Position numbers and translations under genes: made by a program. The notes beneath the pieces were generated by a model. It was given only the letters and a program-made list of their open reading frames with translations. It was not told the origin of the DNA and ran no database searches. Of a stretch of 64,000 nt of DNA, positions 21,899 through 62,073 are shown in pieces. Source of the stretch: an uncultured virus (IMG/VR IMGVR_UViG_3300032164_000005) (taxonomy: Duplodnaviria; Heunggongvirae; Uroviricota; Caudoviricetes); IMG/VR virus record IMGVR_UViG_3300032164_000005; one strand, given 5' to 3'. Positions within the stretch are counted from its first letter, which is position 1, and each line of letters starts with the position of its first letter.

Positions 21899-22549
21899 AT
21901 GAAGAAGCGATACGGCTACGCGCTGATGGAAGATCCTGGCTCCGAGGGCGTCGCCAGCGACAACGCAGAATACTCCTCGTCGTTGGCGACGGCAGAGAAT
22001 CGCGCGTCCCTCCTGGCGATGCGGCATCGCCATCCCGTTCTCGTGTGGGACACCGAGATGAACGTGGTCGTCGCGCACGTCGGAGCCAGCGGGACGGTGA
22101 AGTTCACCGCTGCGCACCCTCGACGACGCAACCCGTCGGAACCGATCACGGCGACCAAGACGCGCAGCGGCGGCATGAAGGTCTGCCGCACCGTCTCGCG
22201 CCGTGAGTCGGACAGGATGACGAAATTCTTCATGCGCGCCGTGCGCAGCAAGCCGGGGACCGTCGTGCGCGGCAACCCGACCTCGAAGAGGAACATCGCG
22301 CTGCCGCCCGAGGTGGTGACGGCGCTGTTCGAGTGGCACGGCGGGCAGTCCACGCCGACCTACTCGCTCGCGAGCACCGGCCAGGGCCACACGGTCAGCC
22401 TCGACATGATCAAGGCGGCCGAAGAAGAACTCGAGCGCGTGTACAAGAGGCTCAAGCCGAGGACCAAGGAGCGCACGCACCTGCGTCGCCTGCTCGGCGA
22501 ACTCGACACGATTCAGCGATACCCCGAGGAGTACAAGTACGATGAGTAG
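21899..22549 (+). CDS. RRNP-motif multidomain protein
   Basis: RRRNPS and RGNPT split it into three segments. Confidence 0.7.
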   Translation: MKKRYGYALMEDPGSEGVASDNAEYSSSLATAENRASLLAMRHRHPVLVWDTEMNVVVAHVGASGTVKFTAAHPRRRNPSEPITATKTRSGGMKVCRTVSRRESDRMTKFFMRAVRSKPGTVVRGNPTSKRNIALPPEVVTALFEWHGGQSTPTYSLASTGQGHTVSLDMIKAAEEELERVYKRLKPRTKERTHLRRLLGELDTIQRYPEEYKYDE

Positions 22550-23105
22550 CAAGACGCCTTGGGGCTGGATTCTGGCGGGTGCTGCCGCGATCTTCGTCGT
22601 TGCGAGAAATATCTCAGCAGCGCCGATGCCGCAGGCCGCACGCGCGCCGAGGCCCGGCCCGACAGGCGCGACCGGTGTGCCGACGTCCGGTCCGACGGGT
22701 ACGACCGGCGTGACGGGTACGTGGCTCGTTGGTGTGACGGGCACGACAGGCGCGGTCGGCCTGACCGGTGCCGGTGGAGGGGTCGTCGTGCAGTCGCGCC
22801 CGGTCCCGATCGATCCATCCACCGTCACGCCCTTCGAGGCTGCGAAGATCCTGGCAACCGTGCAAGGACAGCTTCGCGCGCTCGGCTACAACATCGATCG
22901 GATCGACGGCATCCAGAGCGATGCGACAACGGCTGCGGCGCAGCAGTTCTACGCGGACCATCGCGCTGCGGTAGACGCTGAAGCCGCACGGGTCCACAGC
23001 CACGACGACTGGGTCGTGTTGGTGATCCTCGACGACATCTACCGGGCGGCCTTCAACCTTCCGTCGGCCGTTGCGCCGACGCCGCTAGGAGCGACAGGAG
23101 CATGA
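22542..23105 (+). CDS. N-anchored protein with GAT repeats and a peptidoglycan-binding-like domain
   Basis: VQGQLRALGY...IDGIQSDATTAAAQQF. Confidence 0.7.
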   Translation: MSSKTPWGWILAGAAAIFVVARNISAAPMPQAARAPRPGPTGATGVPTSGPTGTTGVTGTWLVGVTGTTGAVGLTGAGGGVVVQSRPVPIDPSTVTPFEAAKILATVQGQLRALGYNIDRIDGIQSDATTAAAQQFYADHRAAVDAEAARVHSHDDWVVLVILDDIYRAAFNLPSAVAPTPLGATGA

Positions 23106-24247
23106 CCACGCAGCACAACTTCGGCCCGGTCGGAATCATCGGTTCGACCGTCGCGGACAGACCTGATCCGAGACTGCTTCCACTCGGCGAGTATTTCGTC
23201 TCGGAGTTGGATGGCCGGACGTTCTTCGTGACCAGGAACGGGATCGGCGTTCACGTCTGGAAGGAAGTCCTGGGCGCGGGCGGCGGAGGCGGAAGCCCGG
23301 TCGGGTTCGTGGTCGGTCCTGCGGGATCCGGCGCGCAGTTCACGACGTTCGCGTCGGCCATCGCAGCCGCGCTGCTCGCTGGTATCAGCACGGTGATGTT
23401 CCTGTCGGGTCGGTACGCCGCCGAACCAGTGATCAACCTCCCCGCTGGTATCTCGTTGCAGCCGTTTGGCGCAGAAGAGTTCACCGCGATCATCATCGCC
23501 GACATCGTCACGAACGCCCCGTTCAGCCTCACGCGAAGCGTCCAGGCTCTGCGCGGGTTCGTGCTCCAGGGTACGATCACCTGTGGCCCTCTCGCTGGGC
23601 CCGCGACGAACGCGATCGTCACGCTGACCGACATGCAGATTTCTTCGCCTGCGGGCCACGGAATCCGCACGCTCAACGACGGCTGGACGTTTGTGCTGAA
23701 GGAGGCGGATATCAACGTCCCCGCCGGAAGCAGGGACATCGACGCGAACGGATCGGTGAGCATCGACGCTTCTCGGAGCAACTTCGGATCGGTGGATCGT
23801 CCTCCTGTCGAACTCGGGAACGGCGGGTCGGCGAGGTTCGAGAACTGCTTCTTCCGTGGACCCGCGAATCGCATCAGCAACGTCGCTGCGAGCCTGAACT
23901 TCACCAACACGATTTTCGAGCTTCTGGGAAGCCCTTCGTACGTGATCGATGGCTTCGCGGGCAGCACGGTATCGATCAACGGCACGTTCGTTCAGCAGGG
24001 CCTTGCGGCGGCTGGAATGATCCTCGATCCGCTGCTGGGCACGCTTCAGATCGGGATGGGCGTCGATCTCGGAGAGCTTAAATTCTCCAGCCGACCGGTG
24101 CCGCCGTCCGCGAACATCATGCAGGGTGTCACGGCCTACTTCTTCGGCATGCTCCCCGGCGGTCCGAGTACCACCGCGACAGAAGCGCCTGTCTACTTCG
24201 CGGCGGGATTCTGGCGGCGCACCTCCGACGACTCGGTCGCGGCGTAG
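23102..24247 (+). CDS. putative spike/receptor-binding beta-helix protein
   Basis: AQFTTFASAIAAA...GRY..INLPAGISL resembles a pectin-lyase-like cap; beta-rich. Confidence 0.55.
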   Translation: MTTQHNFGPVGIIGSTVADRPDPRLLPLGEYFVSELDGRTFFVTRNGIGVHVWKEVLGAGGGGGSPVGFVVGPAGSGAQFTTFASAIAAALLAGISTVMFLSGRYAAEPVINLPAGISLQPFGAEEFTAIIIADIVTNAPFSLTRSVQALRGFVLQGTITCGPLAGPATNAIVTLTDMQISSPAGHGIRTLNDGWTFVLKEADINVPAGSRDIDANGSVSIDASRSNFGSVDRPPVELGNGGSARFENCFFRGPANRISNVAASLNFTNTIFELLGSPSYVIDGFAGSTVSINGTFVQQGLAAAGMILDPLLGTLQIGMGVDLGELKFSSRPVPPSANIMQGVTAYFFGMLPGGPSTTATEAPVYFAAGFWRRTSDDSVAA

Positions 24248-24249
24248 CC

Positions 24250-24570
24250 ATGAAGAAGCACATTCCGTCTGCGAGCAGCGCCCAGAACCTCCTGCCTCGG
24301 GGGATGGTTCTGATCCGCCGCCGAGACATCAAGAGAATATTCTCGTTGGCGAAGAAGCTCGGGTTCTTGACGGAACTGCGCGGGCTCGGCGTGCTGGTTC
24401 ACGAGGGCCTGATGGACGGCAGCAAGAACCTGATCCCGAAGGGGATGGTCCTGATCAGGAAGGCCGATCTGAAGCGGATCTACGGGCTGGCCGAGAGGCT
24501 GGGATTCCTGACGCGTCTGAAGGCGCTCGGGGTGATGGTTCACGAAGGCGTCTACCGGGAGTACAAGTAG
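24250..24570 (+). CDS. basic protein with two internal repeats
   Basis: NL(L/I)P(R/K)GMVLIR...LGFLT.L..LGV.VHEG occurs twice. Confidence 0.75.
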   Translation: MKKHIPSASSAQNLLPRGMVLIRRRDIKRIFSLAKKLGFLTELRGLGVLVHEGLMDGSKNLIPKGMVLIRKADLKRIYGLAERLGFLTRLKALGVMVHEGVYREYK

Positions 24571-24572
24571 CC

Positions 24573-24944
24573 ATGAAGAAGTACGGCACGACGGGCGACG
24601 TCAACGCGTTCGAGTACGGCGGCGGACTCGTGTTCGACAAGGGCAACGGCCCGGAGTGGTGGGTGTGGGACGAGCCCGACGAGGGCGGCGATCTCCTCGT
24701 GTACCGGGTGAGCGTCCCGGAAGACGTGCTCGAGTACTACAACTGGGCGGACGTGGACGCGGTGGCTCGTTCTACCGGCGAGAGCGTGATGGACATCAAG
24801 CGTCGCGGTTCGTCCAAGAACCCGCTGAACCGCGTTCGCGCCATGGAGAGCATTGCGGGGCACTACGGCATCATGGAGTTCGACTCGGAACCGCAGGAGT
24901 ACACCGAGGAGAGGCTTCGTGAGATCCTCGAGGAAGAAGAGTAG
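24573..24944 (+). CDS. phage hypothetical protein
   Basis: GDVNAFEYGG; acidic C-terminus. Confidence 0.7.
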   Translation: MKKYGTTGDVNAFEYGGGLVFDKGNGPEWWVWDEPDEGGDLLVYRVSVPEDVLEYYNWADVDAVARSTGESVMDIKRRGSSKNPLNRVRAMESIAGHYGIMEFDSEPQEYTEERLREILEEEE

Positions 24945-24946
24945 CC

Positions 24947-25504
24947 ATGTCGCTCAAGAAGATTCACGAGATCATCGTCTCGCCCCGCGTCCAGGTCCGC
25001 ACGTACAAGGACTCGGAGTGGGGAGAGTTCCAGACCAGAGTGTACCGGGATGGGAAGTTTCGCGAGTCGGAGACGAACCACGAGACAGATCGCGAGAGCG
25101 CGATCCTGACGGCGCAGGACATGGCGCGCAGACTCGAGACGCGACAGAACCCGTCGCGCACAAAAGCGCGAGCGATCGGTGAGGCACCGCGCTCGCGTAC
25201 CGAGGTGTCTCTCCAGAAGCGGGAAGCTCACCTCGCGAAGAGGGTCGAGGCTCTCGTGATCAGCCTGGGCGGCAAGAGGTTCTTGTCGCCCGGCTATCCG
25301 CTCGAGATCGAAACGAAGCACGGAATCCTCGCCATCGACCCGAATCTCGGGTGGATCGCCACGCGGTTCGAGGACGCCGCCAGGGGACAGCGCGCAGGTG
25401 CCGGTCAGACCGGGAAGTGGAACTTCTTCCCGCGCGGCGAGAGCATCAAGGCGTACGACGAGTTGTTCGAGACGTTCGCTGCGTCGTTGCGGAGGATCCT
25501 GTGA
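24947..25504 (+). CDS. two-domain protein joined at RQNPS
   Basis: ETRQNPSR linker. Confidence 0.7.
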   Translation: MSLKKIHEIIVSPRVQVRTYKDSEWGEFQTRVYRDGKFRESETNHETDRESAILTAQDMARRLETRQNPSRTKARAIGEAPRSRTEVSLQKREAHLAKRVEALVISLGGKRFLSPGYPLEIETKHGILAIDPNLGWIATRFEDAARGQRAGAGQTGKWNFFPRGESIKAYDELFETFAASLRRIL

Positions 25505-26292
25505 GAACGCGTCGTCGGAACCCGAGCGAGAGCAAGTACGTCCCGAGCGAGGGCAAGTACATCGTCGTGAACGCGACACGAGGCCGCGTGCTGGACAGCT
25601 ACGGCACGCTCGATGCGGCGCTCGAGGCCGTGAGCGATGCTCGTGACGGGTACGGCAACTCTGCACACACCTATCACGTCCTCGGTCCGTCATCGAACAA
25701 AACGGTGGCGGTCATCGACGGGGACAGCGGCGACGTACGGATGAACCCGTCCGGCCGTCGCCGTTCGACCCGGTCTCGCAGGAATCCCAACTACGCCGAC
25801 GTGCTCCAGACGAGGCGCGAGTTGAAGGAGAAGCTGCATGGCACGCCGCTGATGTACTCCGTCGCCCTGGAGCGATGGCTCGGCGACGACGAGGACAAGG
25901 AAGACCTCGTGATCAGCGCCGTGAACCAGATGCTGCGCGAGGGCTGGCAGAAATCTTCGCTCGACCGTTCGCACAGCCTCGTCATCGCGCGCCATGGCAC
26001 CGCGAAGCCGTACTACTCCGTGCTGCTGCAGTCGTCGCGCCGCAACCCGTCGAAGCGCGCATCGCTTCGCACGCGTGAGGGCACTCGAGTACGGTTCGTT
26101 CCGTCGTCCGCGAGCTTGGCGCTGTACGGCCAGCATCCGCAGGTCGGCGAGGATGGCACCGTGAGACCTGTGTCGTTGGGCAGCAGGCGGGCGACCAGCC
26201 TGCGCGGCCCTGGCGGCGGCCTGCTCTACGTGGACTGGGACCGCAGCGCGTTCCAGGGCGTGTCTCCGCTCGACCTTGTGGTGGTCCGATGA
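25501..26292 (+). CDS. RRNP polyprotein-like protein (4 motifs)
   Basis: RRRNPS, RMNPS, RRNPN, RRNPS; GTGA coupling. Confidence 0.75.
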   Translation: MRTRRRNPSESKYVPSEGKYIVVNATRGRVLDSYGTLDAALEAVSDARDGYGNSAHTYHVLGPSSNKTVAVIDGDSGDVRMNPSGRRRSTRSRRNPNYADVLQTRRELKEKLHGTPLMYSVALERWLGDDEDKEDLVISAVNQMLREGWQKSSLDRSHSLVIARHGTAKPYYSVLLQSSRRNPSKRASLRTREGTRVRFVPSSASLALYGQHPQVGEDGTVRPVSLGSRRATSLRGPGGGLLYVDWDRSAFQGVSPLDLVVVR

Positions 26293-27065
26293 GAGCGTTC
26301 AAGCAGGGCGATTCGATGCGGGTGACGGCTGACGAGCGCGACATCGATGCGTTCACAGACCGATTGCCCGCCTCTGGTCTCAGAGGGCTTCGATCCGTGT
26401 CGGCGATCTTCGAGCACAACGGGGATCTCGTGGACCTGTACACGAACGGACGCTACGGTGCCGGTCGCTTCGACGGCGGGGCTCTCGACGCGCTGCTCGA
26501 GGACATGCAGGAGTACGGGAAGCGCCGGATCTCCGGCACCGCTCGTCAGAATCCTGGTCTCGTCGTCGCAGACGAGATCCTGCGCCAACTCGGCGGATCC
26601 AACCGTCTCAAGGCGATGGTCGGCGCGCACTCGTTCCGTGGCGACAGAAACTCGCTCACGTTCAACCTCAAGGCGAGGGCGAAGCGCGGCATCAGGATCA
26701 TCAAGATCGTGCTCGATCCCAGCGACACGTACAACGTGGAGTTCTGGTCGGTCGCGCCCGTGAAGAAGGTCGCCGAGTACGAAGACGTCTACGCCGAGGG
26801 CCTGCTTCAACTGATCGAGCGCGAGACCGGGCTGGCGCTGCGGTTGAATCCTGTCGGCCGCAAGACGGTGCGGTTCACGAAGGTGGCCCCGAACTCCTGG
26901 GTCGTGAAGACGCCGATGGGCTCGATGTACCATGTGACGCACTACACGTCGCCGGTCATGGCGCGCGCGTGGGGCGGCGAGTGGGTGGCCGAGGGCTCTG
27001 TCGCACACACCAAGATCGTAGCCAACTCGATGGCGGAGCTACGCGCTCTGCTGGAGCGTCACTAG
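26289..27065 (+). CDS. three-domain protein joined at RQNP and RLNP
   Basis: Middle module ILRQLGG...DTYNVEF...TGL resembles a stand-alone phage protein. Confidence 0.75.
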   Translation: MRAFKQGDSMRVTADERDIDAFTDRLPASGLRGLRSVSAIFEHNGDLVDLYTNGRYGAGRFDGGALDALLEDMQEYGKRRISGTARQNPGLVVADEILRQLGGSNRLKAMVGAHSFRGDRNSLTFNLKARAKRGIRIIKIVLDPSDTYNVEFWSVAPVKKVAEYEDVYAEGLLQLIERETGLALRLNPVGRKTVRFTKVAPNSWVVKTPMGSMYHVTHYTSPVMARAWGGEWVAEGSVAHTKIVANSMAELRALLERH

Positions 27066-27067
27066 CC

Positions 27068-27313
27068 ATGGAGATCACCTTCAACCCAGAGAACGTCCAG
27101 GAGACCGTCGGCAACGCCGTGTCGGTCGCCGCGAACGTGATGAACAACCGCGTGCTGCCCCAGGAAGAGCGGATCATCGCTCAGGGCGCGCGACAACTAT
27201 CAGCCGCTGTCGATGAGGGCACGCGCGGGCTGCGGAACGTCCTGCTGATCACCGGCCTCGCGATTGCGGGAGCGATCGTCTACCACGGCTGGAAGTCCGG
27301 GAAGCGTGGGTGA
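27068..27313 (+). CDS. small C-terminally anchored membrane protein
   Basis: TM helix plus KSGKRG. Confidence 0.7.
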   Translation: MEITFNPENVQETVGNAVSVAANVMNNRVLPQEERIIAQGARQLSAAVDEGTRGLRNVLLITGLAIAGAIVYHGWKSGKRG

Positions 27314-27322
27314 GCAGTGAGC

Positions 27323-27763
27323 ATGGGCCGCACCGGACTGTTCCGTGGGTTTTCCGAGACGCTCGTAGAGTGGCTTCAGACGGACGAGGCGTACGCTTTG
27401 TTGCCGTCCTCGAGTACATGGACGGCTGGCGGGTGTTGGATACTCGGGAGCGCGCTCGAGGCATGGATGGACCGCCCGTACACCCGTCAGATGGCTCTCG
27501 TGTCCGGCGGGATCCCGCAACACGTCGTACTCGAGTTCAGGAAAGATGTCTTCGTTGATGGTGACGGAGTATCCACGCGCGTGAGGCTGAGAAAGCGGTG
27601 GCGTGAACTCGAAGGTCTCGAGATCGAGCGGATCGTACCTTTCGACTTGTACATGGTCCGGGTTGGTCGGCAGCACGGGCTATCATGCCCAGCAACACGA
27701 GTACAGCGTGTCACCCAGGAACTGCGAAAGGTGCTGGGGGATCCGTCTTACTGGGGCCTGTGA
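27323..27763 (+). CDS. putative Cys-His-Asp (transglutaminase/papain-like) enzyme
   Basis: GGCWILGSAL...HVVL...FVDGDG. Confidence 0.5.
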   Translation: MGRTGLFRGFSETLVEWLQTDEAYALLPSSSTWTAGGCWILGSALEAWMDRPYTRQMALVSGGIPQHVVLEFRKDVFVDGDGVSTRVRLRKRWRELEGLEIERIVPFDLYMVRVGRQHGLSCPATRVQRVTQELRKVLGDPSYWGL

Positions 27764-27829
27764 CAGGCCAGGAGTACGCCGGGCGGTGACACGCCCAGGC
27801 GGCCGTTGCCTGACCGTCGGCGAAGGCGG

Positions 27830-28195
27830 TCAGGCAGCAGGCTTCTGTGGCGTCTCGACGAGCCTGACGACTGCCTTCCGGTCGCCCCGGAGCAGCGCAG
27901 CCGTCAGCCGGTGGTGCCCGTCGGCGATGAGCATCCGCCCGTCGGACATGCGGTAGACCAGAGGTGGGTCTGGAGAGCTTGTCACGTACCGGTTCACGCC
28001 GACGGATGTCACCCTCCGCTGCGTCCCCCAGAGACCCTCCAGGGGCACGGTCGTCCGTTTGGCTCGGTCGATCAGTCGGGACGGGATGGCGGGCTTCTTG
28101 GCGTACGGGAACGGCGAGGCGAGCCAGATGACGACGGACCCGTCGTCCCAGAGTTCGCGCTCGAGCACTGGCAGGCCGAAGACGGTCCTCGTCAC
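27830..28195 (-). CDS. ParB/Srx N-terminal-like domain protein
   Basis: PPLV...LIADGHHRLTAA; GTGA coupling. Confidence 0.6.
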   Translation of the reverse strand: MTRTVFGLPVLERELWDDGSVVIWLASPFPYAKKPAIPSRLIDRAKRTTVPLEGLWGTQRRVTSVGVNRYVTSSPDPPLVYRMSDGRMLIADGHHRLTAALLRGDRKAVVRLVETPQKPAA

Positions 28196-29040
28196 GCGAA
28201 CAGGTCCGTGTCGATGAACGAGGCCTGCACGAGCGACCAGAAGTCGTTCGCGAGTCCCGAGGTGACGTAGCGGTACGGCATCCATCCATACCCGCCGTCG
28301 CCCCAGCCCGTGCCCCACGAGTTGCGCACGATGAATGCGCCCGTGTCGGTGCCGATCTTGTGCGCGTCGTTGTAGCCGACGATGACCATGGCGTGGCCGC
28401 CCTCGACGCTGTCGGTCTTGGCGGGGAACGGGATGTCGCCTCGGGGGTCATCGGGCGCTCCGATGCCTGGGAACGACGAGTAGACCGTCGTGCCGAACAT
28501 CGCCGGAAGCTGTCCAACGAGCGACGTCTTGAGCGCCTCCATAGTCTTCGCGGGGGAGCTACCTGCCGGGTCGTGACGGTAGTACTTCGTCGCTCGGTAG
28601 TTGCTCGCGAGGCTGTACAGGAACGCCGAAGGCTCTTCGTCGAACTTGGACTCGACGTACGGGTAGAGCTTCTCGGGCGGCGTGCCGAACATCGCGATGG
28701 CCTGCATCGCGGTGCGAAGCTCTGCGCCCGTGTCGCCACGGTCGCCCGCGAGATTCCGCGTGGCCTTGTAGATGAACAGGCGCGATGCGTCGAGGTGCTT
28801 GTTGAACGCGCGGCGCTCGAAGTACTCGAGCAGGCCGATGGCCGCGTTCGCGGTACACGAACCGATCTGTCCTTGGTCCTCGATCGGAGAACACCATGGC
28901 CGCAGATCGACCGAGGCGGGGAACGTGGCGGCAGCGATCCGGTTGGATTGCCCGAGCAGCGGCTTGATCTCCGGGTGCTCGGGGTGGAAGTCGCGGATGT
29001 CGGGGAGGTCGCGGATCCAACCCATCGCTCGGCGTGTCAT
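28192..29040 (-). CDS. papain-family (C1A) cysteine protease
   Basis: DQGQIGSCTANA, GGHAMVIVGY, IVRNSWG. Confidence 0.93.
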   Translation of the reverse strand: MTRRAMGWIRDLPDIRDFHPEHPEIKPLLGQSNRIAAATFPASVDLRPWCSPIEDQGQIGSCTANAAIGLLEYFERRAFNKHLDASRLFIYKATRNLAGDRGDTGAELRTAMQAIAMFGTPPEKLYPYVESKFDEEPSAFLYSLASNYRATKYYRHDPAGSSPAKTMEALKTSLVGQLPAMFGTTVYSSFPGIGAPDDPRGDIPFPAKTDSVEGGHAMVIVGYNDAHKIGTDTGAFIVRNSWGTGWGDGGYGWMPYRYVTSGLANDFWSLVQASFIDTDLFA

Positions 29041-29052
29041 GCGTGAACAGTA

Positions 29053-29277
29053 CTACTCGTCCGCCTCGGCGAGAAGCGCGTTGCACAGCGTGCGCAACTC
29101 CTGGAGACGGTCGCGCGTGAGGTAGACGGTCACGATGGTTCCGTTGGGCGTCTGCACGGCGTACACGGACCCGGCGACGACGGCGATGCGGCTGCCGTCG
29201 CGCACCATCGTGAAGCTGTCTTCGCGACGACGCTCGACGGCCGCCTGGGCGGCGTGCAGCGCCTCGGTCAGGTCCAT
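29053..29277 (-). CDS. hypothetical protein
   Basis: ORF in the minus-strand array. Confidence 0.5.
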   Translation of the reverse strand: MDLTEALHAAQAAVERRREDSFTMVRDGSRIAVVAGSVYAVQTPNGTIVTVYLTRDRLQELRTLCNALLAEADE

Positions 29278-29437
29278 GCCGCCCGGCGTCGCTTCCGTGG
29301 GTTGCGACGGCGTCCTCGTGTCGTTCCGGCCCGGCGCGTCGGGGTGGGCTCGTCCGGCAAGAGATCAGCACCACCGAGTCCGCTCAGGACGAGATACCCG
29401 AGGCCGATGACGACGACACCGATGACGAGAGGCTTCA

Positions 29438-29950
29438 TCACATGTCTCGGAGCGCGCGGTTGATGTCCTTCGCGCCGTACCGGATTTCGAGGTAGATCAC
29501 GAAGACGTCGTTGCCGCGCTCATCGACCGCGTAGTGACGAGTCATTGCTCTGAAGGAGTCTGCTGGCACCAAGGCGCGCAGTTGCTCGAGCACCTTCTTC
29601 GCCTTGCGCTCGGCGGCGTTCCAGCCGCGTCCAGAGACCTCGATGGTTCCCTGGTTGGTCAGGTCGTTGATGAAGATGCGGCTTGGCTTCGCTGCTCGCG
29701 AGACGGACGGGTTCCTGATCGACCCGCTCATCACGGCGGTGTACACGCCCTGGTTCGCGTGGTGCCGCTTCAGGGCGTACTTCACCGCAGCGGTGATCGC
29801 TCCCTTGGGCCACTTCATCTTCGTGGTCTGCTTGCGGATCTCTTCGGCAATTTCCTCGTCGGGAGTGCCGACGTGGTGCCTGCCTACGGCGCGGTCGATC
29901 GCGTGCTTCGGGAGGATCTTGTCGTAGTTCACGCGCTTCTTGGTCGTCAT
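29438..29950 (-). CDS. two-domain protein joined at IRNPS
   Basis: GAGG RBS; SIRNPSV. Confidence 0.65.
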   Translation of the reverse strand: MTTKKRVNYDKILPKHAIDRAVGRHHVGTPDEEIAEEIRKQTTKMKWPKGAITAAVKYALKRHHANQGVYTAVMSGSIRNPSVSRAAKPSRIFINDLTNQGTIEVSGRGWNAAERKAKKVLEQLRALVPADSFRAMTRHYAVDERGNDVFVIYLEIRYGAKDINRALRDM

Positions 29951-29984
29951 CGTCTACCTCGAGGTCAGTGGATCAGGCCCAGGT

Positions 29985-30440
29985 CTAGCGGCGCGGATTG
30001 CGCCGTCTTCGCCCTGAGGGATTCGATCGCGCCTTCGGCTTGCCGAGACCCTGCGCCAGGGCGACGGCGGGCACGATGATCGGGAACATGAACCCGAGGA
30101 AGCCCCACCACAGGCCCCAGCCGAGGGAGTTGTTGCGCCGGTAGCCGTGGTACACGCCGATGCCCGACGAGGCGTACGCGACGGTCTGCATCAGGGGCGA
30201 GCGCCCCATGTACCCGGTCTCCGGTGTCGGGCTGACCGGGATGAGTTGCGTTACGTGCCCACCTGGGACTCGAATCAGGATGTTCTGCCCGTCCGTTGTC
30301 ACCGTGAGGTCGCCGGGCGTCGCGCCGACGTCCTGGATGATGCCCCGGCTGACGACAAGGTTCGCGATGCTACTTGGGGACGAGTAGGGCGGGATGTCGA
30401 TCCGGGATGAGGGGCTGCCATCGACGTAGTACGTGGTCAT
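29985..30440 (-). CDS. membrane protein with RSNPSGRRRRNPRR tail
   Basis: YHGYRRN..WGLWWG TM; leaderless -10 TATCAT. Confidence 0.7.
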   Translation of the reverse strand: MTTYYVDGSPSSRIDIPPYSSPSSIANLVVSRGIIQDVGATPGDLTVTTDGQNILIRVPGGHVTQLIPVSPTPETGYMGRSPLMQTVAYASSGIGVYHGYRRNNSLGWGLWWGFLGFMFPIIVPAVALAQGLGKPKARSNPSGRRRRNPRR

Positions 30441-30608
30441 GGGCGGATGATACAGGATCCCCGACGTAGTGGGTACGGCACCGCTCGCACCGGAACAGGC
30501 ACGGCATGTCCCGCCGGATCCGACGGAAGGTGTCGTGCCCGCAGGCGCAGCGGAACAGGGTGCCGTTCCGCGTGAGGTGGACCCGCATGCTGCCCCCTTG
30601 CCTAGAGT

Positions 30609-30875
30609 CTACATCTCCGTGACCAGATGGAACGGGTCGAACGATTCGGTCGAGATCCAGAACTGCTTGCCCTTGCTCGGCGTGATCAACTCTCCCTCGT
30701 CGCTCACGACGCGCAGGTAGCTCGGCACGGGGACCAGGAGAGCGCCGACCTTCAGCACGCTGACCCCATCCTGGATGATCAGATCGTTCTTCTCTCGCCT
30801 GACCTTCACGCACGCCCACGGCTTCTGCGTGTACTGCGTGCGGTGCAGGTCGCGCGGCCTGACCGGATGGGTCAT
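30609..30875 (-). CDS. hypothetical protein
   Basis: TGATG coupling. Confidence 0.45.
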   Translation of the reverse strand: MTHPVRPRDLHRTQYTQKPWACVKVRREKNDLIIQDGVSVLKVGALLVPVPSYLRVVSDEGELITPSKGKQFWISTESFDPFHLVTEM

Positions 30876-31053
30876 CAGGGCCTTCCAAGCATTTCTTGGA
30901 TGACCGGCAGCGCGAGCCATTGCCGTGAGTGTTCCTTGTACGTCCCGGTCAGCATCTGCTCGGGCGTGACCCAGGCCGCTTCGCCTTCGGGCCCAGAAAT
31001 CAGTTCGACGTCGTCGTCGATCACGCCGAGGAACGTCGAACAGAGCGTTGTGT

Positions 31054-31500: not shown

Positions 31501-31557
31501 GTTTCCCTCGTTACCGCTAGCTGTTGTACGCGCTTTGCTGCGACGTGTCTACCGCGC

Positions 31558-31881
31558 TCACATCGTGGTGACCTCCGGCCGGGCAATGCACTCGCAGGGG
31601 TACTGCACGCAGTCGAGGCACACCTGCGTCACGACGCCGCGTAGCATCCGGGCGTACTTCGCGTCGGCGATCTCTTGGACGAAGGTCTTCCGCTTGACCT
31701 TGTAACTCTCGACGGCGTTCCTCTTCGCGGCCTCGACGTGCTCGTCGCAGCAGGGCGTGCCGCGCCAATTGGCATTCGGCGAGACCGTGTGGGTTGCGAG
31801 TTCCTGGCAGAACGCACAGCCGGGCACGTACTGCTGAAGCAGACGCAGCATGGCGGTGACTTCTTCGATGGTCAGGTTCAC
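31558..31881 (-). CDS. Cys-rich hypothetical protein
   Basis: CAFC...CCDEH...CLDC. Confidence 0.55.
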   Translation of the reverse strand: MNLTIEEVTAMLRLLQQYVPGCAFCQELATHTVSPNANWRGTPCCDEHVEAAKRNAVESYKVKRKTFVQEIADAKYARMLRGVVTQVCLDCVQYPCECIARPEVTTM

Positions 31882-32510: not shown

Positions 32511-32531
32511 CTGTCGCTTCCCGGTAGCCAG

Positions 32532-39375: not shown

Positions 39376-39903
39376 ATGATGACCAAGGCCGACGTCCTCG
39401 TGCAGTTCCGTGAACTCTGGCGCGACGCGGTTCGTGCTCGACCCAGCCTGCGCGGCGACGACGTCGCGCGGCGTGAGGCGTGGAACGACTACACGGACGC
39501 GTTGCAGAAGGACGGCCTGATCTCGACCCGGCAGTACGACACATGGTCGGGGCCGTTCAGGAACCCCTCCGGGTCCGTGGATCGCAGGCGTCCAAGCGCC
39601 CTCATGCCTGCCGGGACTCCTCGGTACGTTCACGTCTACGACAACGGCGGCAAGACCGCCGATCGTTACACGATCGTTTTCACGGGTCGCTACCGACACA
39701 AGACCAACGGATCGTTCGTCCATCTGGGAGCGAGCGCCCATCCGTTCCATCCGCAGGGCGTCGGCATGCACGGCGAGTCGCGGGACCAGATCGACTACCC
39801 GTCGTACGGCCATCTCGGCAAGAAGATCGGGTTCAAGGATCTTCCGCCGGACGTGCAGAAGTTCGTGGTCATCACGTACAAGGACATCTGGAGCCTGAAG
39901 TAG
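39376..39903 (+). CDS. two-domain protein joined at FRNPS
   Basis: AWNDYTDALQKDG module plus YDNGGKTADRYT...HPQG module. Confidence 0.75.
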   Translation: MMTKADVLVQFRELWRDAVRARPSLRGDDVARREAWNDYTDALQKDGLISTRQYDTWSGPFRNPSGSVDRRRPSALMPAGTPRYVHVYDNGGKTADRYTIVFTGRYRHKTNGSFVHLGASAHPFHPQGVGMHGESRDQIDYPSYGHLGKKIGFKDLPPDVQKFVVITYKDIWSLK

Positions 39904-43140: not shown

Positions 43141-43629
43141 GTGATCGCCGACGAGAAGCCATTCTTCGTTCCCAACACCGTCACGCCCTGCGAGAGGATC
43201 GCCATCCTTGAGCGGCTTGCCACGTCCGGGTCCAGAAGACCGTTCGTGCAAGCCTTCGCGCAGAAGCTTCCTGGCAAGACGAACCTCGAGATTGCTCGGT
43301 CGGCCCTGGCGGCCGTGCAGGAGCTTCCGTACGTGCCTGGACCTCCCAACGAGGAGTGGATGCAGGGTGCGACCTGGACGATGGCGCACGGCGGGGAGTG
43401 CAAGGCGCTCTCAGTGCTACTTGTTGCTGCGCTCCGGGCCCGTGGCGTGCCTGCCGAAATCGTCTGGATCACCCAGACCGGCAAGCCGCTGAACCACGTC
43501 ACCGTGGTAGTGTCGGACGGACCTGATCAGTACTGGGCGGAGCCTGCCGTGCCCGGAGCAAGGCTCGGCGAGAGTCCGTACGAAGCCATCGAGCGTACGA
43601 ACGCGTGGCATGTGGTAGGAGGCCGATGA
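43141..43629 (+). CDS. transglutaminase-like Cys protease
   Basis: GGECKALSVLLVAALRARG...NHV...WAEP. Confidence 0.75.
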   Translation: MIADEKPFFVPNTVTPCERIAILERLATSGSRRPFVQAFAQKLPGKTNLEIARSALAAVQELPYVPGPPNEEWMQGATWTMAHGGECKALSVLLVAALRARGVPAEIVWITQTGKPLNHVTVVVSDGPDQYWAEPAVPGARLGESPYEAIERTNAWHVVGGR

Positions 43630-52848: not shown

Positions 52849-53370
52849 ATGGCTCGATACAATCCGTTCTTCCTCGGCAAGAAGACTGCCGTCGGAACCA
52901 GTCTCAGTGGTCGCCTCGTGCGGTCGAAGAGCAAGAAGCGCCGCCTCTCGGGCGCGGCCCTGCTCGCGTGGCGCAAGAAGCACGTCAAGGGTCGTCGTCG
53001 GGTCAAGAGCCTGCTCGGTGGCAGCAAGAAGTCGCGTCGGCTGAACCCGTGGTTCCTCGGCAAGAAGACCGCCGTCGGATCGAAGATCACCGGCCGCGTG
53101 ATCAAGTCGAAGCACAAGGGCAAGCGCCTCTCGAAGGCCGCGCTGCTCTCGTGGCGCTCGGAGCATGTGAAGGGTCGTCGCCGCGTTTCGAGCCTGCTGA
53201 AGGGCAGCAAGAAGTCGCGTCGGCTGAACCCGACCCACGGCAACAAGGGCCTGTCAGCGCGGATCGCGCTGCTCGAGCGCAAGATCGCCGCGATCACCAA
53301 GGCGCACAAGAAGATGATCAAGAGCCTCTCGGCGAAGATGTCGCATCGCCGTCTGAACAGCGGCTACTAG
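52849..53370 (+). CDS. highly basic repeat protein, candidate DNA-condensing core protein
   Basis: Two ~63-aa K/R-rich repeats bounded by RYNP/RRLNP. Confidence 0.75.
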   Translation: MARYNPFFLGKKTAVGTSLSGRLVRSKSKKRRLSGAALLAWRKKHVKGRRRVKSLLGGSKKSRRLNPWFLGKKTAVGSKITGRVIKSKHKGKRLSKAALLSWRSEHVKGRRRVSSLLKGSKKSRRLNPTHGNKGLSARIALLERKIAAITKAHKKMIKSLSAKMSHRRLNSGY

Positions 53371-57508: not shown

Positions 57509-57907
57509 ATGATGTCCCCGTCGATGCTGCTCACCCTGTTCAACGCGGAGCGGAACGAGTTCGCGAAGTACTTCCCGAAGGCCCGTGAGGCGCAACTGGC
57601 GATCTCGAATCGGGAGTGTTCGATCGGCGGTCGGTGCGGCCTTCGCGATCTTGGGTGGGCCTACGACGGGGATCACACGGTGACGCTCCTGCGTCGGTCG
57701 CTGACGCTGCCCGACAACCGGATCGTCGGTCTCATTCGCCACGAACTCGGACATCTGGCCGACCCGTACATCAACGAACCAGGGGCGGAGCAGCGGGCCG
57801 ACGACATCGCCGAGATGGTGTCCGGCCAGCAGATCCGGTACGATGCAGACGACATCCAGACCGTCGGACGCGGGAAGTACCCGCGTCCCCTCTACCTGCA
57901 TCGGTGA
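57509..57907 (+). CDS. small HExxH metallopeptidase-like protein
   Basis: IRHELGH...EQRAD; leaderless TAGAAT-6-ATG. Confidence 0.65.
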   Translation: MMSPSMLLTLFNAERNEFAKYFPKAREAQLAISNRECSIGGRCGLRDLGWAYDGDHTVTLLRRSLTLPDNRIVGLIRHELGHLADPYINEPGAEQRADDIAEMVSGQQIRYDADDIQTVGRGKYPRPLYLHR

Positions 57908-60543: not shown

Positions 60544-61464
60544 TCACGCCGCTACCTCCTCGGCGACCTTCTCGGACGCCTCGCCCCCGACGTTCAGCGC
60601 GTCGAGGATCGTGTTCGCGGCCTTCACGATCCGCTCGCCCACGCGGGCGATGATCTTCGTGGCCGGGTCGCCGCCGTTCTGCGCCCAGGTCGCGACGTAG
60701 GGGAACGAGTAGCACCCGGTGTCCAGGCCGAGGGCGTGCGAGACGATGAACGCCACGCTCTCTGCCTCGACCTCGCACACGGGGCGCTCGTGGCGCTCGT
60801 CGGACCCGTGGAGCAGAGAGTGCGCGACCTCGTGGACGAGGGTCTTGAACTGCTCCGCGCGGTTGCGACCGCCGGTCACGATCACGATCTCGCGTGACAG
60901 GCGGGAGTACCAGCCCTTCGCGCCGCCGCCGAATTCCGTGTCGGTCTCCTGGAAGCGGATCGCCGAGACGGGCGCACCCTCGAGTCCCAGGGCGACGTCG
61001 CGCAGGCGCTCGATGGACTGCTCGAACACCTCGGGCGCGTCGATGCGCGGCAACTCTTTGGACTCAGGGAGGGGCTCGCCGTCGGTCTGGCTGACGTCGA
61101 ACACGGACACGACGCGGAACCGCACGCCCTTGAGCGTCTCGGTGGTCTCGATGCCCTGCGCGTCCGTACGCTTCACGTCGCGCTTGAACGGCACGGGGGC
61201 GAGGATCGCGTGGCTCTTGGCACCGCGCACGACGTGGCGGTTCACGGACAACCACGTCTTGAACCCTGCGACGGCGCGCATGTCCGCGCCCTGGCTGATC
61301 AGGAGTAGCTGGTTCGCGAACGAGTAGCGGCGCGGCGAGAGCTTGCCCAGGGTCGCGCTGGCGGTCAGCACGGCCTTCCAGTCCTCGTCCGTGTTGAGCG
61401 CCGCGAGACCGCGCTGCAGGGCTTCCTGCGCGGCCTTGACCCTGTCTGTCGTCTCGTTCGTCAT
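60544..61464 (-). CDS. ArdC-like antirestriction protein (ssDNA-binding plus HExxH domain)
   Basis: YSFANQLLL, AGFKTW..VNRHV.RG, VFDVSQTDG, LVHEVAH, EVEAESVA. Confidence 0.85.
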   Translation of the reverse strand: MTNETTDRVKAAQEALQRGLAALNTDEDWKAVLTASATLGKLSPRRYSFANQLLLISQGADMRAVAGFKTWLSVNRHVVRGAKSHAILAPVPFKRDVKRTDAQGIETTETLKGVRFRVVSVFDVSQTDGEPLPESKELPRIDAPEVFEQSIERLRDVALGLEGAPVSAIRFQETDTEFGGGAKGWYSRLSREIVIVTGGRNRAEQFKTLVHEVAHSLLHGSDERHERPVCEVEAESVAFIVSHALGLDTGCYSFPYVATWAQNGGDPATKIIARVGERIVKAANTILDALNVGGEASEKVAEEVAA

Positions 61465-61552
61465 CGTCGTACCCTCCACTGGGTCAGACGGCTGCCTACT
61501 GTGATTATTCTCGGAAATCGTAACCGATGGGAATACCGTTCGATTTTGTCGC
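61465..61552 (-). promoter_or_regulatory. conserved promoter/leader cassette, copy 5
   Basis: ATTCCCATCGGTTACGATTTCCGAGAATAAT...CGTCTGAC...GGAGGGT. Confidence 0.8.
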
Positions 61553-61555
61553 TGC

Positions 61556-61613
61556 CGGATATCAGGCCGGGCTCGGATATCTGGCCGGGCTACCCGCCGG
61601 GGCCGGGATATCC
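61556..61613. repeat. 18-bp tandem repeat with GGATATC cores
   Basis: CGGATATC(A/T)GGCCGGGCT twice, plus a third GGATATCC. Confidence 0.7.
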
Positions 61614-61659
61614 GACGAGGGCTTTCCCCGTACGGCATCGCGCTCACGCGCGAGGTCAC

Positions 61660-61746
61660 CGACAGAAAACGACGGTATTCCCATCGGTTACGATTTTGTA
61701 GAATATACCCAGAAGGGCTGCGTCTGACCGTGTGGAGGGTGTGACG
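61660..61746 (+). promoter_or_regulatory. conserved promoter/leader cassette, copy 6
   Basis: CGGTATTCCCATCGGTTACGATTTTGTAGAATATA...CGTCTGAC...GGAGGGTGTGACG. Confidence 0.8.
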
Positions 61747-62073
61747 ATGACGCAGACGACGACGATCGAGTGTCTGGAGTGCGGACGGCGCGACGCGGAT
61801 CGCATGCTGACCCTGCGCGAGCAGGGCCAGACCGAGGGCGGCTGGGAGTTTCCGGTCTGCGCGCAGGACGCAAGCCGCGTGATCGGCCAGTGGTACGCCC
61901 ACACGCACGGCGCGGTTCGCCAGCACGTCCTCGCGACGGGCGACGTGGTCGAGGGGCGCTGGATCAGCCGCGAGGCGGTGCTGGCGCTCAGCAAGCGTGG
62001 GATCTGGTTCGCGGGCGGGACCATCATCGACGATGGGGCGATCGAGACTGTCTACCGTGGGAGGACGCGATGA
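61747..62073 (+). CDS. hypothetical protein (cassette-driven)
   Basis: CLECG...C; start set by the cassette. Confidence 0.65.
   Translation: MTQTTTIECLECGRRDADRMLTLREQGQTEGGWEFPVCAQDASRVIGQWYAHTHGAVRQHVLATGDVVEGRWISREAVLALSKRGIWFAGGTIIDDGAIETVYRGRTR

What the first reader, a model, noticed from the sequence alone, without database searches (positions are those of the whole stretch)
24947..27065. Polyprotein-like strings of small domains joined at NP motifs
In ORFs 24947, 25501 and 26289 the motifs fall between 60-100 aa globular-looking modules. The middle module of 26289 (VADEILRQLGG...TGLALRL) looks like a small protein found alone in other phages and is bounded exactly by RQNP and RLNP. 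Inference: the virus fuses captured accessory genes into cleavable cargo polyproteins, possibly injected anti-defence or host-takeover factors.
Basis: partly seen in the sequence, partly recalled or inferred. Interest (0 to 1): 0.8.

Follow-up and report, generated by a model that had tools for sequence, protein, structure and literature searches.

The report
Asn-Pro seams joining swappable viral modules
Three neighbouring genes of an uncultured bacterial virus are chains of small, independently folding protein modules, and every joint carries the same Arg-x-Asn-Pro mark, which looks like a cut-here signal although no cutting has been shown.

Summary
Genes A (24947-25504), B (25501-26292) and C (26289-27065) carry 7 Asn-Pro pairs against 0.9 expected. 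All 7 lie at module joints or in a short N-terminal leader, and none lies inside a module. Modules match stand-alone phage protein families end to end. In the middle module of C, Asn-Pro sits where free-standing homologues have Met-Ala, and the next Asn-Pro follows their last residue. Relatives carry the same modules in other orders and combinations, again with Asn-Pro at the joints. A near-identical strain (L004) has swapped modules exactly at these seams. The AlphaFold model of C puts both motifs in coil linkers between three domains. R-x-N-P is enriched window-wide (19 against 2.4). Eight more distant viral contigs with one of these modules show no [RK]-context Asn-Pro enrichment, so the seam is lineage-specific. 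Cleavage, cargo and injection remain untested. No peptidase could be tied to the motif, although the window encodes a papain-like enzyme, a weaker transglutaminase-like one, and three proteins with a zinc-peptidase HExxH motif. My best reading, at about 40%, is a polyprotein processing site. This scan noted the same seams earlier on other uncultured viruses. I found no paper describing them.

The parts
24947..25504 (+). Gene A, 185 aa. Module 1 is res 1-67 and module 2 is res 70-185, joined by TRQNPS (Asn-Pro codons 25148-25153).
   Evidence: Res 1-62 match phrog_7884 at positions 1-63 of 66, E 1.6e-5. A homologue of module 1 is joined through RRTNP to a different module in strain L004.
25501..26292 (+). 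Gene B, 263 aa, GTG start overlapping the A stop. It comprises leader MRTRRRN-P (NP codons 25519-24), module 1 (res 9-81), an 11-residue basic spacer with Asn-Pro on each side (NP 25744-49 and 25783-88), module 2 (res 97-181), NP 26044-49, and module 3 (res 184-263).
   Evidence: Res 13-73 match phrog_7402, E 1.1e-4. Relatives P0005, P0015, P0016 and P0017-P0025 recombine these modules at Asn-Pro. The single-sequence model folds only module 1 confidently.
26289..27065 (+). Gene C, 258 aa. It comprises module 1 (res 1-87), RQNPG (NP 26550-55), module 2 (res 90-186), RLNPV (NP 26847-52) and module 3 (res 189-258).
   Evidence: PHROG match. AF2 model with mean pLDDT 84 shows three domains, with the seams in coil 82-90 and 181-194. 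Stand-alone forms are P0011, P0013 and P0012. Shuffled forms are P0005-P0009.
39376..39903 (+). A second seam protein elsewhere in the window, 175 aa, with two modules joined by FRNPSGS (NP at res 63-64).
   Evidence: phrog_336 matches res 2-61 (profile 3-57 of 57, E 1.8e-16) and phrog_4496 matches res 70-165 (E 7.1e-13).
29438..29950 (-). 170-aa protein with SIRNPS at res 80-81. The module after the seam differs in a near-identical strain.
   Evidence: The L004 homologue (218 aa) reads A-module-1-like, RRTNP, the shared module, SIRNP, then an SH3-like module known from the P0015 N-terminus.
29985..30440 (-). 151-aa protein ending in a hydrophobic (putative membrane) stretch and then two C-terminal seams plus a basic tail (…ARSNPSGRRRRNPRR*).
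   Evidence: The L004 homologue ends …ARPNPRSRSRRRR*.
29268..29441 (-). 57-aa protein with a hydrophobic N-terminal stretch, ending …GRRRNPRKRRRAAWT*.
   Evidence: It is conserved in L004.
52849..53370 (+). Very basic protein made of two 61-aa repeats plus a tail. Each unit begins right after an Asn-Pro (MARYNP…, KKSRRLNP…, KKSRRLNP…). The ATG start is inferred.
   Evidence: NP spacing 61 aa.
21899..22549 (+). 216-aa protein at the head of the same + strand gene run, carrying RRRNPS (res 78) and RGNPT (res 126).
   Evidence: No module homology was obtained.
28192..29040 (-). Papain-family (C1) cysteine peptidase. It is the nearest candidate processing enzyme, 1.1 kb from gene C.
   Evidence: Pfam PF00112, E 6.7e-17, 62.7 bits against a 20.7-bit cut-off. 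Sequence. No link to the motif was shown.
43141..43629 (+). Transglutaminase-core (papain-like fold) protein, a second candidate peptidase.
   Evidence: Pfam PF01841, E 3.7e-5, 24.4 bits against a 23-bit cut-off.
57509..57907 (+). Small 132-aa protein with an HELGH zincin motif, a weak candidate metallopeptidase.
   Evidence: Motif scan. The SprT-like match is only E 0.025, below the cut-off.
60544..61926 (-). ArdC-like anti-restriction protein with an HEVAH metallopeptidase motif.
   Evidence: Pfam ArdcN E 4.3e-7. phrog_7245 E 2.5e-13. Motif.

Best explanation
A, B and C are polyprotein-style chains of small, independently folding accessory-protein modules. Each module carries its own short, usually basic C-terminal tail ending in Asn, and the next module begins with Pro.

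I read this R-x-N-P seam as a processing site. After translation the chain is cut at or next to Asn-Pro, and each piece is released with almost the same ends as its free-standing homologues. The most likely agent is a virus-encoded peptidase. The papain-like enzyme at 28192-29040 is the first candidate, followed by the transglutaminase-like and HExxH proteins.

Because any module with such ends can be joined to any other, the format lets the virus lineage gain, lose and swap modules at the seams.

Shown here: modularity, seam positions, conservation of Asn-Pro, linker location and module swapping. Inferred: the cut itself, its agent, and the functions of the modules.
For: 1. All 7 Asn-Pro pairs of A-C lie at the 5 module joints or the B leader, and none lies inside a module; 0.9 were expected.

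2. The seams coincide with the natural termini of stand-alone homologues.
- Seventy-five free-standing forms of the C middle module were listed. They typically begin M-[A/S/T]-x-D-[L/M]-T-V-A and typically end G-L-x-L-S-L.
- Fused forms read N-P-x-D-[L/M]-x-V-A, so Asn-Pro takes the place of Met-Ala.
- In C, Asn-Pro directly follows …GLALRL.
- The same Met-to-Asn-Pro replacement is seen between two strains: MTTKKRVNYDK against …RRTNPSKRVNYDK.

3. Asn-Pro is invariant while its flanks drift. In 21 proteins (A-C plus 18 relatives) there are 47 NP against 12.9 expected. Arg is at -2 in 23 of 47, and every other position is variable.

4. In the top 150 representatives of a phmmer search (2527 hits at E<=1e-3) plus proteins fetched earlier, 149 carried the middle module.
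- 27 of the 61 with an N-terminal flank of at least 25 aa have NP within 15 residues before the module.
- 12 of the 35 with a C-terminal flank have NP within 14 residues after it. Both counts include the window's own protein.
- NP is the most enriched dipeptide in these 94 seam windows, 41 against 7.7.

5. Relatives shuffle modules at the seams, and so does strain L004, whose flanks are 99-100% identical in DNA.

6. The AF2 model of C (pLDDT 84) shows three separate domains with both motifs in coil linkers.

7. The seam is lineage-specific. Eight more distant viral contigs with module B3 show no [RK]x?NP enrichment, and they fuse the same modules without NP.

8. The DNA at the motif varies (AAC or AAT, all four Pro codons, varied Arg codons), so selection acts on the protein.

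9. The window encodes several candidate peptidases.
Against: - No cleavage has been observed, and no data type available here can show it.
- Pro just after the scissile bond is disfavoured by most endopeptidases (general knowledge, not tested).
- No peptidase could be linked to the motif. Earlier notes of this scan name different candidate enzymes in other viruses, which argues against one obvious dedicated protease.
- Motifs at the extreme N-terminus of B (res 7-8) and in C-terminal basic tails (29985, 29268, 46611) would release only tiny peptides. That fits a tag at least as well as a separator.
- Asn-Pro is not depleted in Pfam-supported enzymes of the window: 7 observed against 5.7 expected in 4051 aa. 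The pair alone therefore cannot be a sufficient signal.
- Fusions of the same modules exist without Asn-Pro in other lineages (P0055, L009).
- Asn-Pro is also a favoured helix N-cap, and in C a helix starts two residues after the first seam.
Confidence: 0.4

Rival explanations
1. The seam is an uncut structural element. Asn-Pro acts as an Asx-Pro turn or helix N-cap that insulates neighbouring modules, so that any two can be fused and still fold. The proteins work as intact multi-module chains.
For: - The seams lie in coil linkers, and at C res 88-89 a helix starts at res 91.
- No protease could be tied to the motif.
- Multi-module fusions of the same families exist uncut-looking, without any motif, in other lineages.
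- Asn-Pro is not avoided inside enzymes.
Against: - Asn-Pro also precedes beta-strand modules (NPVGRKTVRF, NPSKRASLRT), hydrophobic stretches and bare basic tails, so it is not a helix cap in general.
- Insulation would be served equally by Asp-Pro, Ser-Pro or Asn-Gly, yet only NP is enriched in seam windows: NP 41 against 7.7, DP 9 against 6.1, NG 8 against 6.9.
- Tandem seams and terminal seams have no insulating role.
Confidence: 0.2
2. The basic run plus Asn-Pro is a short linear tag, not primarily a separator. It would dock the many unrelated proteins that carry it onto a common partner, for example packaged DNA, the capsid interior or a chaperone, possibly with later trimming.
For: - The motif occurs in at least 15 otherwise unrelated proteins of the window.
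- It occurs at an extreme N-terminus (B; also 63690) and in C-terminal tails of Asn-Pro followed by an Arg/Lys run (29985, 29268, 46611; relatives P0017 and P0022).
Against: - In relatives the residues before Asn-Pro can be acidic (KLEENP in P0018, P0019, P0021, P0024 and P0025), so a basic nucleic-acid-binding arm is not universal.
- The number of motifs tracks the number of joints rather than one per protein.
- At C res 187 there is no basic run at all, only RL-NP.
Confidence: 0.2
3. The chain cuts itself at Asn-Pro without a protease. The Asn side chain attacks its own peptide bond (asparagine-peptide-lyase chemistry), as in FlhB/YscU, reovirus mu1 and RsgI.
For: - The Asn-Pro bond is exactly the scissile bond in those systems. 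I read passages of PMC3207474 and PMC10328401.
- This would explain why no common protease is found across viruses.
Against: - In all known cases the Asn-Pro sits in a turn of a conserved fold that activates it (passages). Here it lies in variable linkers between unrelated modules.
- The uncatalysed reaction is slow (general knowledge).
- Seven Asn-Pro pairs inside enzymes would be at risk.
Confidence: 0.08
4. The modules are separated co-translationally. The ribosome fails to join Asn to Pro and restarts at Pro, a bacterial counterpart of eukaryotic 2A peptide skipping.
For: - As with 2A, the seam tail stays on the upstream product and the downstream product would begin with Pro.
- Some relatives carry an L-E-E-N-P variant that resembles the 2A core, which I recall from memory.
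Against: - There is no NPGP in any of the six frames of the window.
- The host is bacterial, as shown by an Amidase_2 peptidoglycan amidase at 51.2 bits, and 2A is not known to work in bacteria (recalled).
- Asn-Pro, one in an Arg context, occurs inside a PD-(D/E)XK nuclease and other enzymes that would then be broken.
- The upstream context is too variable.
- There is no special RNA structure: mean folding energy is -22.3 at 23 sites against -21.4 at 148 controls.
Confidence: 0.03
5. The motif is a DNA-level recombination signal or scar, and the protein-level pattern is a by-product.
For: - Breakpoints between the window and strain L004 fall within about 5 codons of the Asn-Pro codons.
- Two seams share a 17-nt stretch at 82% identity (D7).
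Against: - Only about 5 nucleotides (AAYCC) are fixed, and the Asn, Pro and Arg codons all vary.
- No flanking repeat family marks the seams.
- The motif is always in frame and always at structural module boundaries.
Confidence: 0.05

Closest known systems
Polyvalent proteins of phages and conjugative elements (Iyer et al. 2017, PMC5512222; abstract and 'find' passages read)
   Same: Both are multi-module proteins of mobile elements with extensive mosaicism. Both carry a prediction that the chain is processed into separate units by an element-encoded peptidase. An ArdC-like protein with a metallopeptidase motif is present in this window.
   Different: Those proteins are large, with 2-15 recognisable enzyme domains, and no junction motif is described; the words 'Asn' and 'linker' occur 0 times in the text. 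Here the modules are 67-116 aa with no known domain, and every joint carries a fixed dipeptide.
Viral polyproteins cut at a consensus site by a viral protease (RNA viruses; tandem-unit polyproteins such as nematode polyprotein allergens, PMC3079579, listing only)
   Same: Both have a recurring short consensus exactly at the ends of the mature units, with units that are functional on their own.
   Different: No protease-substrate pair is known here. The Asn-Pro core is not a described viral protease site. The chains are short (2-3 modules) and sit beside ordinary single genes in a dsDNA bacterial virus.
Asparagine peptide lyases with an Asn-Pro scissile bond: FlhB/YscU (N-PTH), reovirus mu1, anti-sigma RsgI (PMC3207474, PMC10328401; passages read)
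   Same: The same dipeptide is involved. In the reovirus case, a viral protein is split to release a small piece.
   Different: There the Asn-Pro lies in a turn of a conserved fold that activates the Asn. Here it lies in variable linkers between unrelated modules, and the following residues are not conserved.
T4-type capsid-targeting sequences and prohead-protease processing of internal proteins (recalled, no call)
   Same: Both involve a short shared peptide on many unrelated proteins of one virus, removed or cut at a simple consensus.
   Different: The site in those phages follows Glu and depends on a known prohead protease (both recalled). No capsid, prohead protease or virion role could be identified in this window; PHROG searches of the large proteins found nothing.
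2A 'StopGo' peptides of eukaryotic viruses (recalled)
   Same: Both have an Asn-Pro core at the joint, a tail left on the upstream product, and Pro as the first residue downstream.
   Different: The Gly-Pro that defines 2A is absent, with 0 NPGP in six frames. The host is bacterial.

Membership tests
Polyvalent proteins (Iyer et al. 2017) | Several unrelated domains in one polypeptide of a phage or conjugative element | tested here: met
   A has 2 modules, B has 3 and C has 3, each with separate homologues. The AF2 model of C shows three domains.
Polyvalent proteins (Iyer et al. 2017) | Domains drawn from the recognised conflict-domain repertoire (MPTase, ArdC-N, MuF, nucleases and others) | tested here: not met
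   A, B and C have no Pfam family above cut-off, no NCBIfam family, and only 'unknown function' PHROGs.
Polyvalent proteins (Iyer et al. 2017) | Delivery into the target cell with the DNA | not testable with these tools
   The virus is uncultured and no virion data exist.
Protease-processed viral polyprotein | A recurring consensus at every junction between mature units | tested here: met
   All 5 module joints of A-C carry Asn-Pro, and Arg is at -2 in 23 of 47 seams of the lineage.
Protease-processed viral polyprotein | Junctions coincide with the ends of units that exist as separate proteins | tested here: met
   Stand-alone forms P0011, P0012 and P0013 plus 75 free middle-module proteins were listed. 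Asn-Pro replaces Met-Ala and follows the last residue.
Protease-processed viral polyprotein | A dedicated protease encoded by the virus | tested here: inconclusive
   One clear C1 peptidase, one transglutaminase-core protein and three HExxH proteins are present, but none is linked to the motif.
Protease-processed viral polyprotein | Cleavage demonstrated | not testable with these tools
   This needs protein chemistry or proteomics.
Asparagine peptide lyases (N6 FlhB/YscU, N7 reovirus mu1, RsgI) | Scissile Asn-Pro bond | tested here: inconclusive
   The dipeptide is present and invariant. Whether it is scissile is unknown.
Asparagine peptide lyases (N6 FlhB/YscU, N7 reovirus mu1, RsgI) | Asn-Pro held in a turn of a conserved self-processing fold | tested here: not met
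   The seams lie in coil linkers between unrelated modules with variable flanks. There is no sequence or fold match to those families.
2A / StopGo peptides | Asn-Pro-Gly-Pro core at the joint (recalled) | tested here: not met
   0 NPGP in all six frames. The residue after Asn-Pro is S, G, N, V and others.

The most novel reading that the evidence does not exclude
Asn-Pro seams are a protease-independent separation code. The chain would come apart at Asn-Pro either by Asn-driven self-cleavage in a flexible linker or by a ribosomal failure to form the Asn-Pro bond. That would give bacterial viruses their own counterpart of the eukaryotic 2A device and a universal plug-and-play format for capturing small genes.
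Probability: 0.1. Interest if true: 0.95.

Novelty: new variant of a known kind. Interest (0 to 1): 0.7.

Why it matters
If the seams are cut, this virus lineage expresses its small accessory proteins as polyproteins with a simple, readable punctuation. That strategy is textbook for RNA viruses, but the searches run here found no description of it for dsDNA viruses of bacteria.

It would matter in three ways:
- It gives a rule for splitting hundreds of unannotated multi-module viral proteins into their functional units.
- It explains how such viruses swap small genes without needing new promoters or ribosome-binding sites.
- It could yield a very short separator peptide that works in bacteria, which would be a useful tool.

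Even if the seams are not cut, a strictly conserved dipeptide at exchangeable module boundaries is an unexplained rule of protein architecture.

Tried and rejected
**Searches for close relatives with DNA context**
- The search for related loci with C in viral contigs found none.
- In metagenome contigs it gave only the near-identical strain L004 and one distant hit.
A smaller one found nothing.
- The 584-aa protein found nothing.
- blastn of 24000-30000 against phage records gave no match.
- No whole genome is held for this window.

**Protease link**
- Complex prediction of the C1 peptidase with B residues 66-112 returned 'no answer' (score 0.01). It counts neither way.
- Look-ups of the C1 peptidase and of the small HELGH protein in earlier notes of the scan found nothing.

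**Asp-Pro and Asn-Gly alternation**
- I noticed Asp-Pro and Asn-Gly at the homologous linker position in some relatives and considered a 'labile bond' series.
- The counts do not support enrichment: DP 9 against 6.1, NG 8 against 6.9. I dropped the idea.

**RNA and DNA signals**
- Seam windows fold no better than controls.
- No repeat family marks the seams.
- There are no tRNA genes and no Rfam families in the window.

**Avoidance of Asn-Pro inside enzymes**
- None was seen: 7 against 5.7 expected.

**Function of modules and nature of the virus**
- Foldseek against PDB found nothing at E<=0.001.
- The PDB sequence profile found nothing meaningful.
- NCBIfam found nothing.
- The protein atlas search on a possible capsid gene gave only weak lyase-like leads below 0.9-0.95.
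- PHROG and Pfam found no structural genes.

**Other**
- The single-sequence fold of B was poor (pLDDT 45.5). I should have given it an alignment.
- tblastn against phage records gave one weak hit for A (E 0.01) and none for B.
Full report
**What is there.**
- The window is a 65% GC stretch of an uncultured virus-like element. It has a replication block: RNase T-type exonuclease, AAA_24, PD-(D/E)XK nuclease, helicase and primase-polymerase.
- An Amidase_2 peptidoglycan amidase (51.2 bits) points to a bacterial host.
- There is no recognisable tailed-phage structural gene, no DNA match among 50,697 phage records, and no whole genome held.
- The finding covers three co-directional, translationally coupled genes: A 24947-25504 (185 aa), B 25501-26292 (263 aa; GTG start inside GTGA) and C 26289-27065 (258 aa; ATGA overlap).
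- They are the last members but two of a run of tightly packed + strand genes that starts at 21899.

- A, B and C hold 7 Asn-Pro pairs where composition predicts 0.90.
- The pairs cut the proteins into units of 67-116 residues, plus a six-residue leader (MRTRRRN-P) and an 11-residue basic spacer in B.
- No Asn-Pro lies inside a unit.
- Profile matches stop at the seams:
  - A res 1-62 is the whole of phrog_7884 (66 positions, E 1.6e-5).
  - B res 13-73 matches phrog_7402 (E 1.1e-4).
  - C res 92-186 is the whole of phrog_9437 (positions 2-98 of 98, E 2.7e-17).
- tblastn of C against phage records gave 7 records, none covering 80% of the query. Six match only res 77-192 and one matches only res 9-81.
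- The matched genes are free-standing small ORFs:
  - a 106-aa protein of Morganella phage Mecenats66 and a 103-aa ORF of an uncultured phage, both ending exactly where C has …GLALRL followed by Asn-Pro;
  - a 99-aa gene in Tunturiibacter phage Tunturi_5.

**The pattern is window-wide and far above chance.**
- In 100 crudely called genes (18,105 aa; the list contains some false ORFs), R.NP occurs 19 times against 2.4 +/- 1.6 in within-protein shuffles (maximum 9 of 1000). R.NP or RNP occurs 33 times against 4.6 +/- 2.2.
- A gene 12 kb away (39376-39903) repeats the anatomy. phrog_336 covers res 2-61, phrog_4496 covers res 70-165, and FRNPSGS sits between them.
- A very basic protein (about 52849-53370) consists of two 61-residue repeats and a tail. 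Each unit starts right after an Asn-Pro.
- The DNA under the motif is not fixed. The Asn codon is AAC or AAT, with AAT in 8 of 23 sites against 61 of 470 Asn codons overall. All four Pro codons and varied Arg codons are used. What is conserved is therefore the protein.

**Relatives shuffle modules at the seams.**
- Searches with C and B returned proteins that recombine the same modules.
  - P0005: C module 1, then B module 1, then B module 3, joined by …RRPNPCSRANP… and …VRMNP….
  - P0006: two new modules, then C module 3, joined by ARQNP and LRSNP.
  - P0007: an unrelated N-terminal part, then LVPNP, then the C middle module, then stop.
  - P0008: the middle module first, then three others, joined by MRNP, QANP and RANP.
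  - P0015 and P0016: an SH3-like module, then VRRNP, then B module 2, then RSNP, then either B module 3 or another module.
- Some relatives end in Asn-Pro plus a basic tail (P0017, P0022). Others use a K-L-E-E-N-P variant before hydrophobic stretches (P0018, P0019, P0021, P0024, P0025).
- Free-standing versions of C module 1 (P0011 at 75 aa, P0013 at 89 aa) and of the middle module (P0012 at 99 aa) have no Asn-Pro.
- Over A-C plus 18 relatives there are 47 Asn-Pro against 12.9 expected. Arg is at -2 in 23 of 47, and the other positions are variable. A few of these 47 lie inside modules, for example P0015 res 183 and P0027 res 24.

**Register with natural termini.**
- A phmmer search of C against 1.84 billion representatives gave 2527 hits at E<=1e-3, almost all to the middle module.
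- I looked at the 150 listed hits plus proteins fetched earlier. Of these, 149 carry the module.
  - 27 of the 61 with at least 25 residues upstream have Asn-Pro within 15 residues before the module start.
  - 12 of the 35 with at least 25 residues downstream have it within 14 residues after the end. Both counts include the window's own protein.
- The 75 free-standing forms typically begin M-[A/S/T]-x-D-[L/M]-T-V-A and end G-L-x-L-S-L. Fused forms read N-P-x-D-[L/M]-x-V-A. Asn-Pro therefore occupies the place of Met-Ala, and a cut between Asn and Pro would give a product of the same length as the Met-trimmed free protein.
- NP is the most enriched dipeptide in the 94 seam windows (41 against 7.7). 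Asp-Pro (9 against 6.1) and Asn-Gly (8 against 6.9) are not enriched.
- Proteins with an Asn-Pro at this module's seam have 0.90 further Asn-Pro per 100 residues elsewhere, against 0.19 expected. Seam use is therefore a property of the protein lineage, not of this one module.

**Swapping between strains.**
- Contig L004 matches the window at 99.2-100% over 26751-29450 and 32411-37116, and at 95.6% over 30018-31567, but is mosaic in between.
- Its homologue of window gene 29438-29950 is a 218-aa protein (start inferred) with this order:
  - a homologue of A module 1;
  - RRTNP;
  - the shared module;
  - SIRNP;
  - a basic spacer;
  - the SH3-like module that stands at the N-terminus of P0015.
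- The window version starts MTTK- where L004 has -NPSK-, and it carries a different module after SIRNP.
- DNA similarity (85%) begins and ends within about five codons of the two Asn-Pro pairs.

**Structure.**
- With a 124-sequence alignment, AlphaFold2 models C at mean pLDDT 84 and pTM 0.56. It shows three domains (elements in 2-81, 91-180 and 195-257).
- RQNP (86-89) and RLNP (185-188) lie in coil 82-90 and 181-194. The 81-90 block has pLDDT 62.
- BFVD matches are single-module phage proteins of about 80-125 aa. The PDB gave nothing at E<=0.001.
- B, folded without an alignment, was poor (pLDDT 45.5). Only module 1 (about res 13-84) was confident, and it is flanked by the seams.

**Lineage specificity.**
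- Eight viral contigs (6-192 kb) encode relatives of B module 3 at 45-56% identity.
- None shows [RK]x?NP enrichment, with observed 0-4 against shuffle means of 0.8-2.9. One (L010) has more plain NP than expected (18 against 7.8), but the pairs sit in non-seam contexts.
- These contigs fuse the same modules without Asn-Pro. In L009, for example, an 855-aa protein holds B module 3 and the C middle module with no seam motif. Four of the eight even have an Asn-Pro inside module 3.
- P0055 has C modules 1 and 2 in the same order, joined by …RRGNLAS….

**Mechanism.**
- The seam behaves as the C-terminal tail of the upstream module (…SSRRNP stays with B module 2 whatever follows it). The next module starts at Pro.
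- This evidence, together with the Met-to-Asn-Pro equivalence, the invariance of two residues in an otherwise drifting linker, and the tandem-unit protein, is what a processing site predicts. I take that as the best reading, at confidence 0.4.
- Candidate enzymes in the window:
  - a papain-family peptidase 1.1 kb away, inside an operon of seam-bearing proteins (PF00112, E 6.7e-17);
  - a transglutaminase-core protein (E 3.7e-5);
  - three HExxH proteins, namely an ArdC-like protein with HEVAH, a 384-aa protein with HELTH, and a 132-aa protein with HELGH whose best family match is sub-threshold.
- None is tied to the motif.
- Weighing against the reading:
  - no cut is shown;
  - Pro after the scissile bond is awkward for most peptidases;
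  - terminal motifs fit a tag better;
  - Asn-Pro is not depleted in Pfam-supported enzymes (7 against 5.7 expected in 4051 aa), so the pair alone cannot be sufficient.
- That last point also weighs against ribosomal skipping. So do the absence of NPGP, the bacterial host, and the absence of special RNA structure at the seams.

**Comparison with what is known.**
- Iyer et al. 2017 describe polyvalent proteins and predict peptidase processing, but no junction motif. 'Asn' and 'linker' occur 0 times in the text (I read the abstract and the passages found).
- Asn-Pro self-cleavage is established for FlhB/YscU, reovirus mu1 and RsgI, always inside a dedicated fold (passages read).
- Seven full-text searches found no paper on Asn-Pro seams in viruses of prokaryotes. 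Subscription journals and supplements were not covered.

**Earlier notes of this scan.**
- At least a dozen notes describe the same 'Asn-Pro seams' in other uncultured viruses of 69-140 kb. None shows cutting, and they name different candidate proteases.
- Those notes are unchecked and were used only as leads. They prompted the HExxH scan and the tag reading.

**Verdict.** The pattern is real, strong and reproducible on this window. 'Cleavable' is the best but unproven explanation. 'Injected anti-defence cargo' is unsupported.

Noticed in passing
window 43959-49391 and 27068-27313: Five proteins end in a hydrophobic stretch followed by a short Lys/Arg tail (…LMLFGKKSKR*, …FFLRSKKKR*, …TKNVTVKKRSR*, …VWTVTKKGKK*, …YHGWKSGKRG*). 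This looks like a set of tail-anchored membrane proteins. Together with the lack of any tailed-phage structural hit, it may point to a membrane-containing virion.
   Followed up: partly
window 52849-53370 (+): This extremely basic protein is built of two 61-residue repeats plus a tail, each unit preceded by Asn-Pro (KKSRRLNP). It overlaps long ORFs on the opposite strand and was missed by my crude gene call.
   Followed up: partly
window 25521-25562: A 21-nt tandem duplication (90% identical) starts at the Pro codon of B's first Asn-Pro and gives PSESKYV-PSEGKYI. Relative P0005 has one copy.
   Followed up: no
window 24250-24570 (+): This 106-aa protein is made of two copies of a roughly 45-residue unit (…LIRRRDIKRIFSLAKKLGFLTELRGLGVLVHEGL… and …LIRKADLKRIYGLAERLGFLTRLKALGVMVHEGV…). 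It has no family match.
   Followed up: no
window 22542-23105 (+): This protein has an N-terminal hydrophobic stretch, a collagen-like G-x-T run (weak matches to tail-fibre and collagen-like PHROGs) and a sub-threshold peptidoglycan-binding domain. The following 381-aa protein has no match. These may be host-recognition parts just upstream of A-C.
   Followed up: no
L004 4920-5391 versus window 31567-32411: Between 100% and 95.6% identical flanks, the strain variant replaces about 840 nt (window genes 31558-31881 and most of 31878-32438) with about 470 nt of unrelated sequence. Only the first 9 codons of the 186-aa gene are shared.
   Followed up: no
window 25719-25772: An imperfect 23-nt inverted repeat (74% complementary) puts the RMNPS seam codons in its 8-nt loop, with a local fold of -40 kcal/mol. 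This is not a general feature of seams.
   Followed up: yes
window 33382-34536 (-): This 384-aa protein has an HELTH motif and a Cys-rich C-terminus (several CxxC pairs). It has only a weak match to a putative metallopeptidase family (DUF6782, E 0.09).
   Followed up: partly
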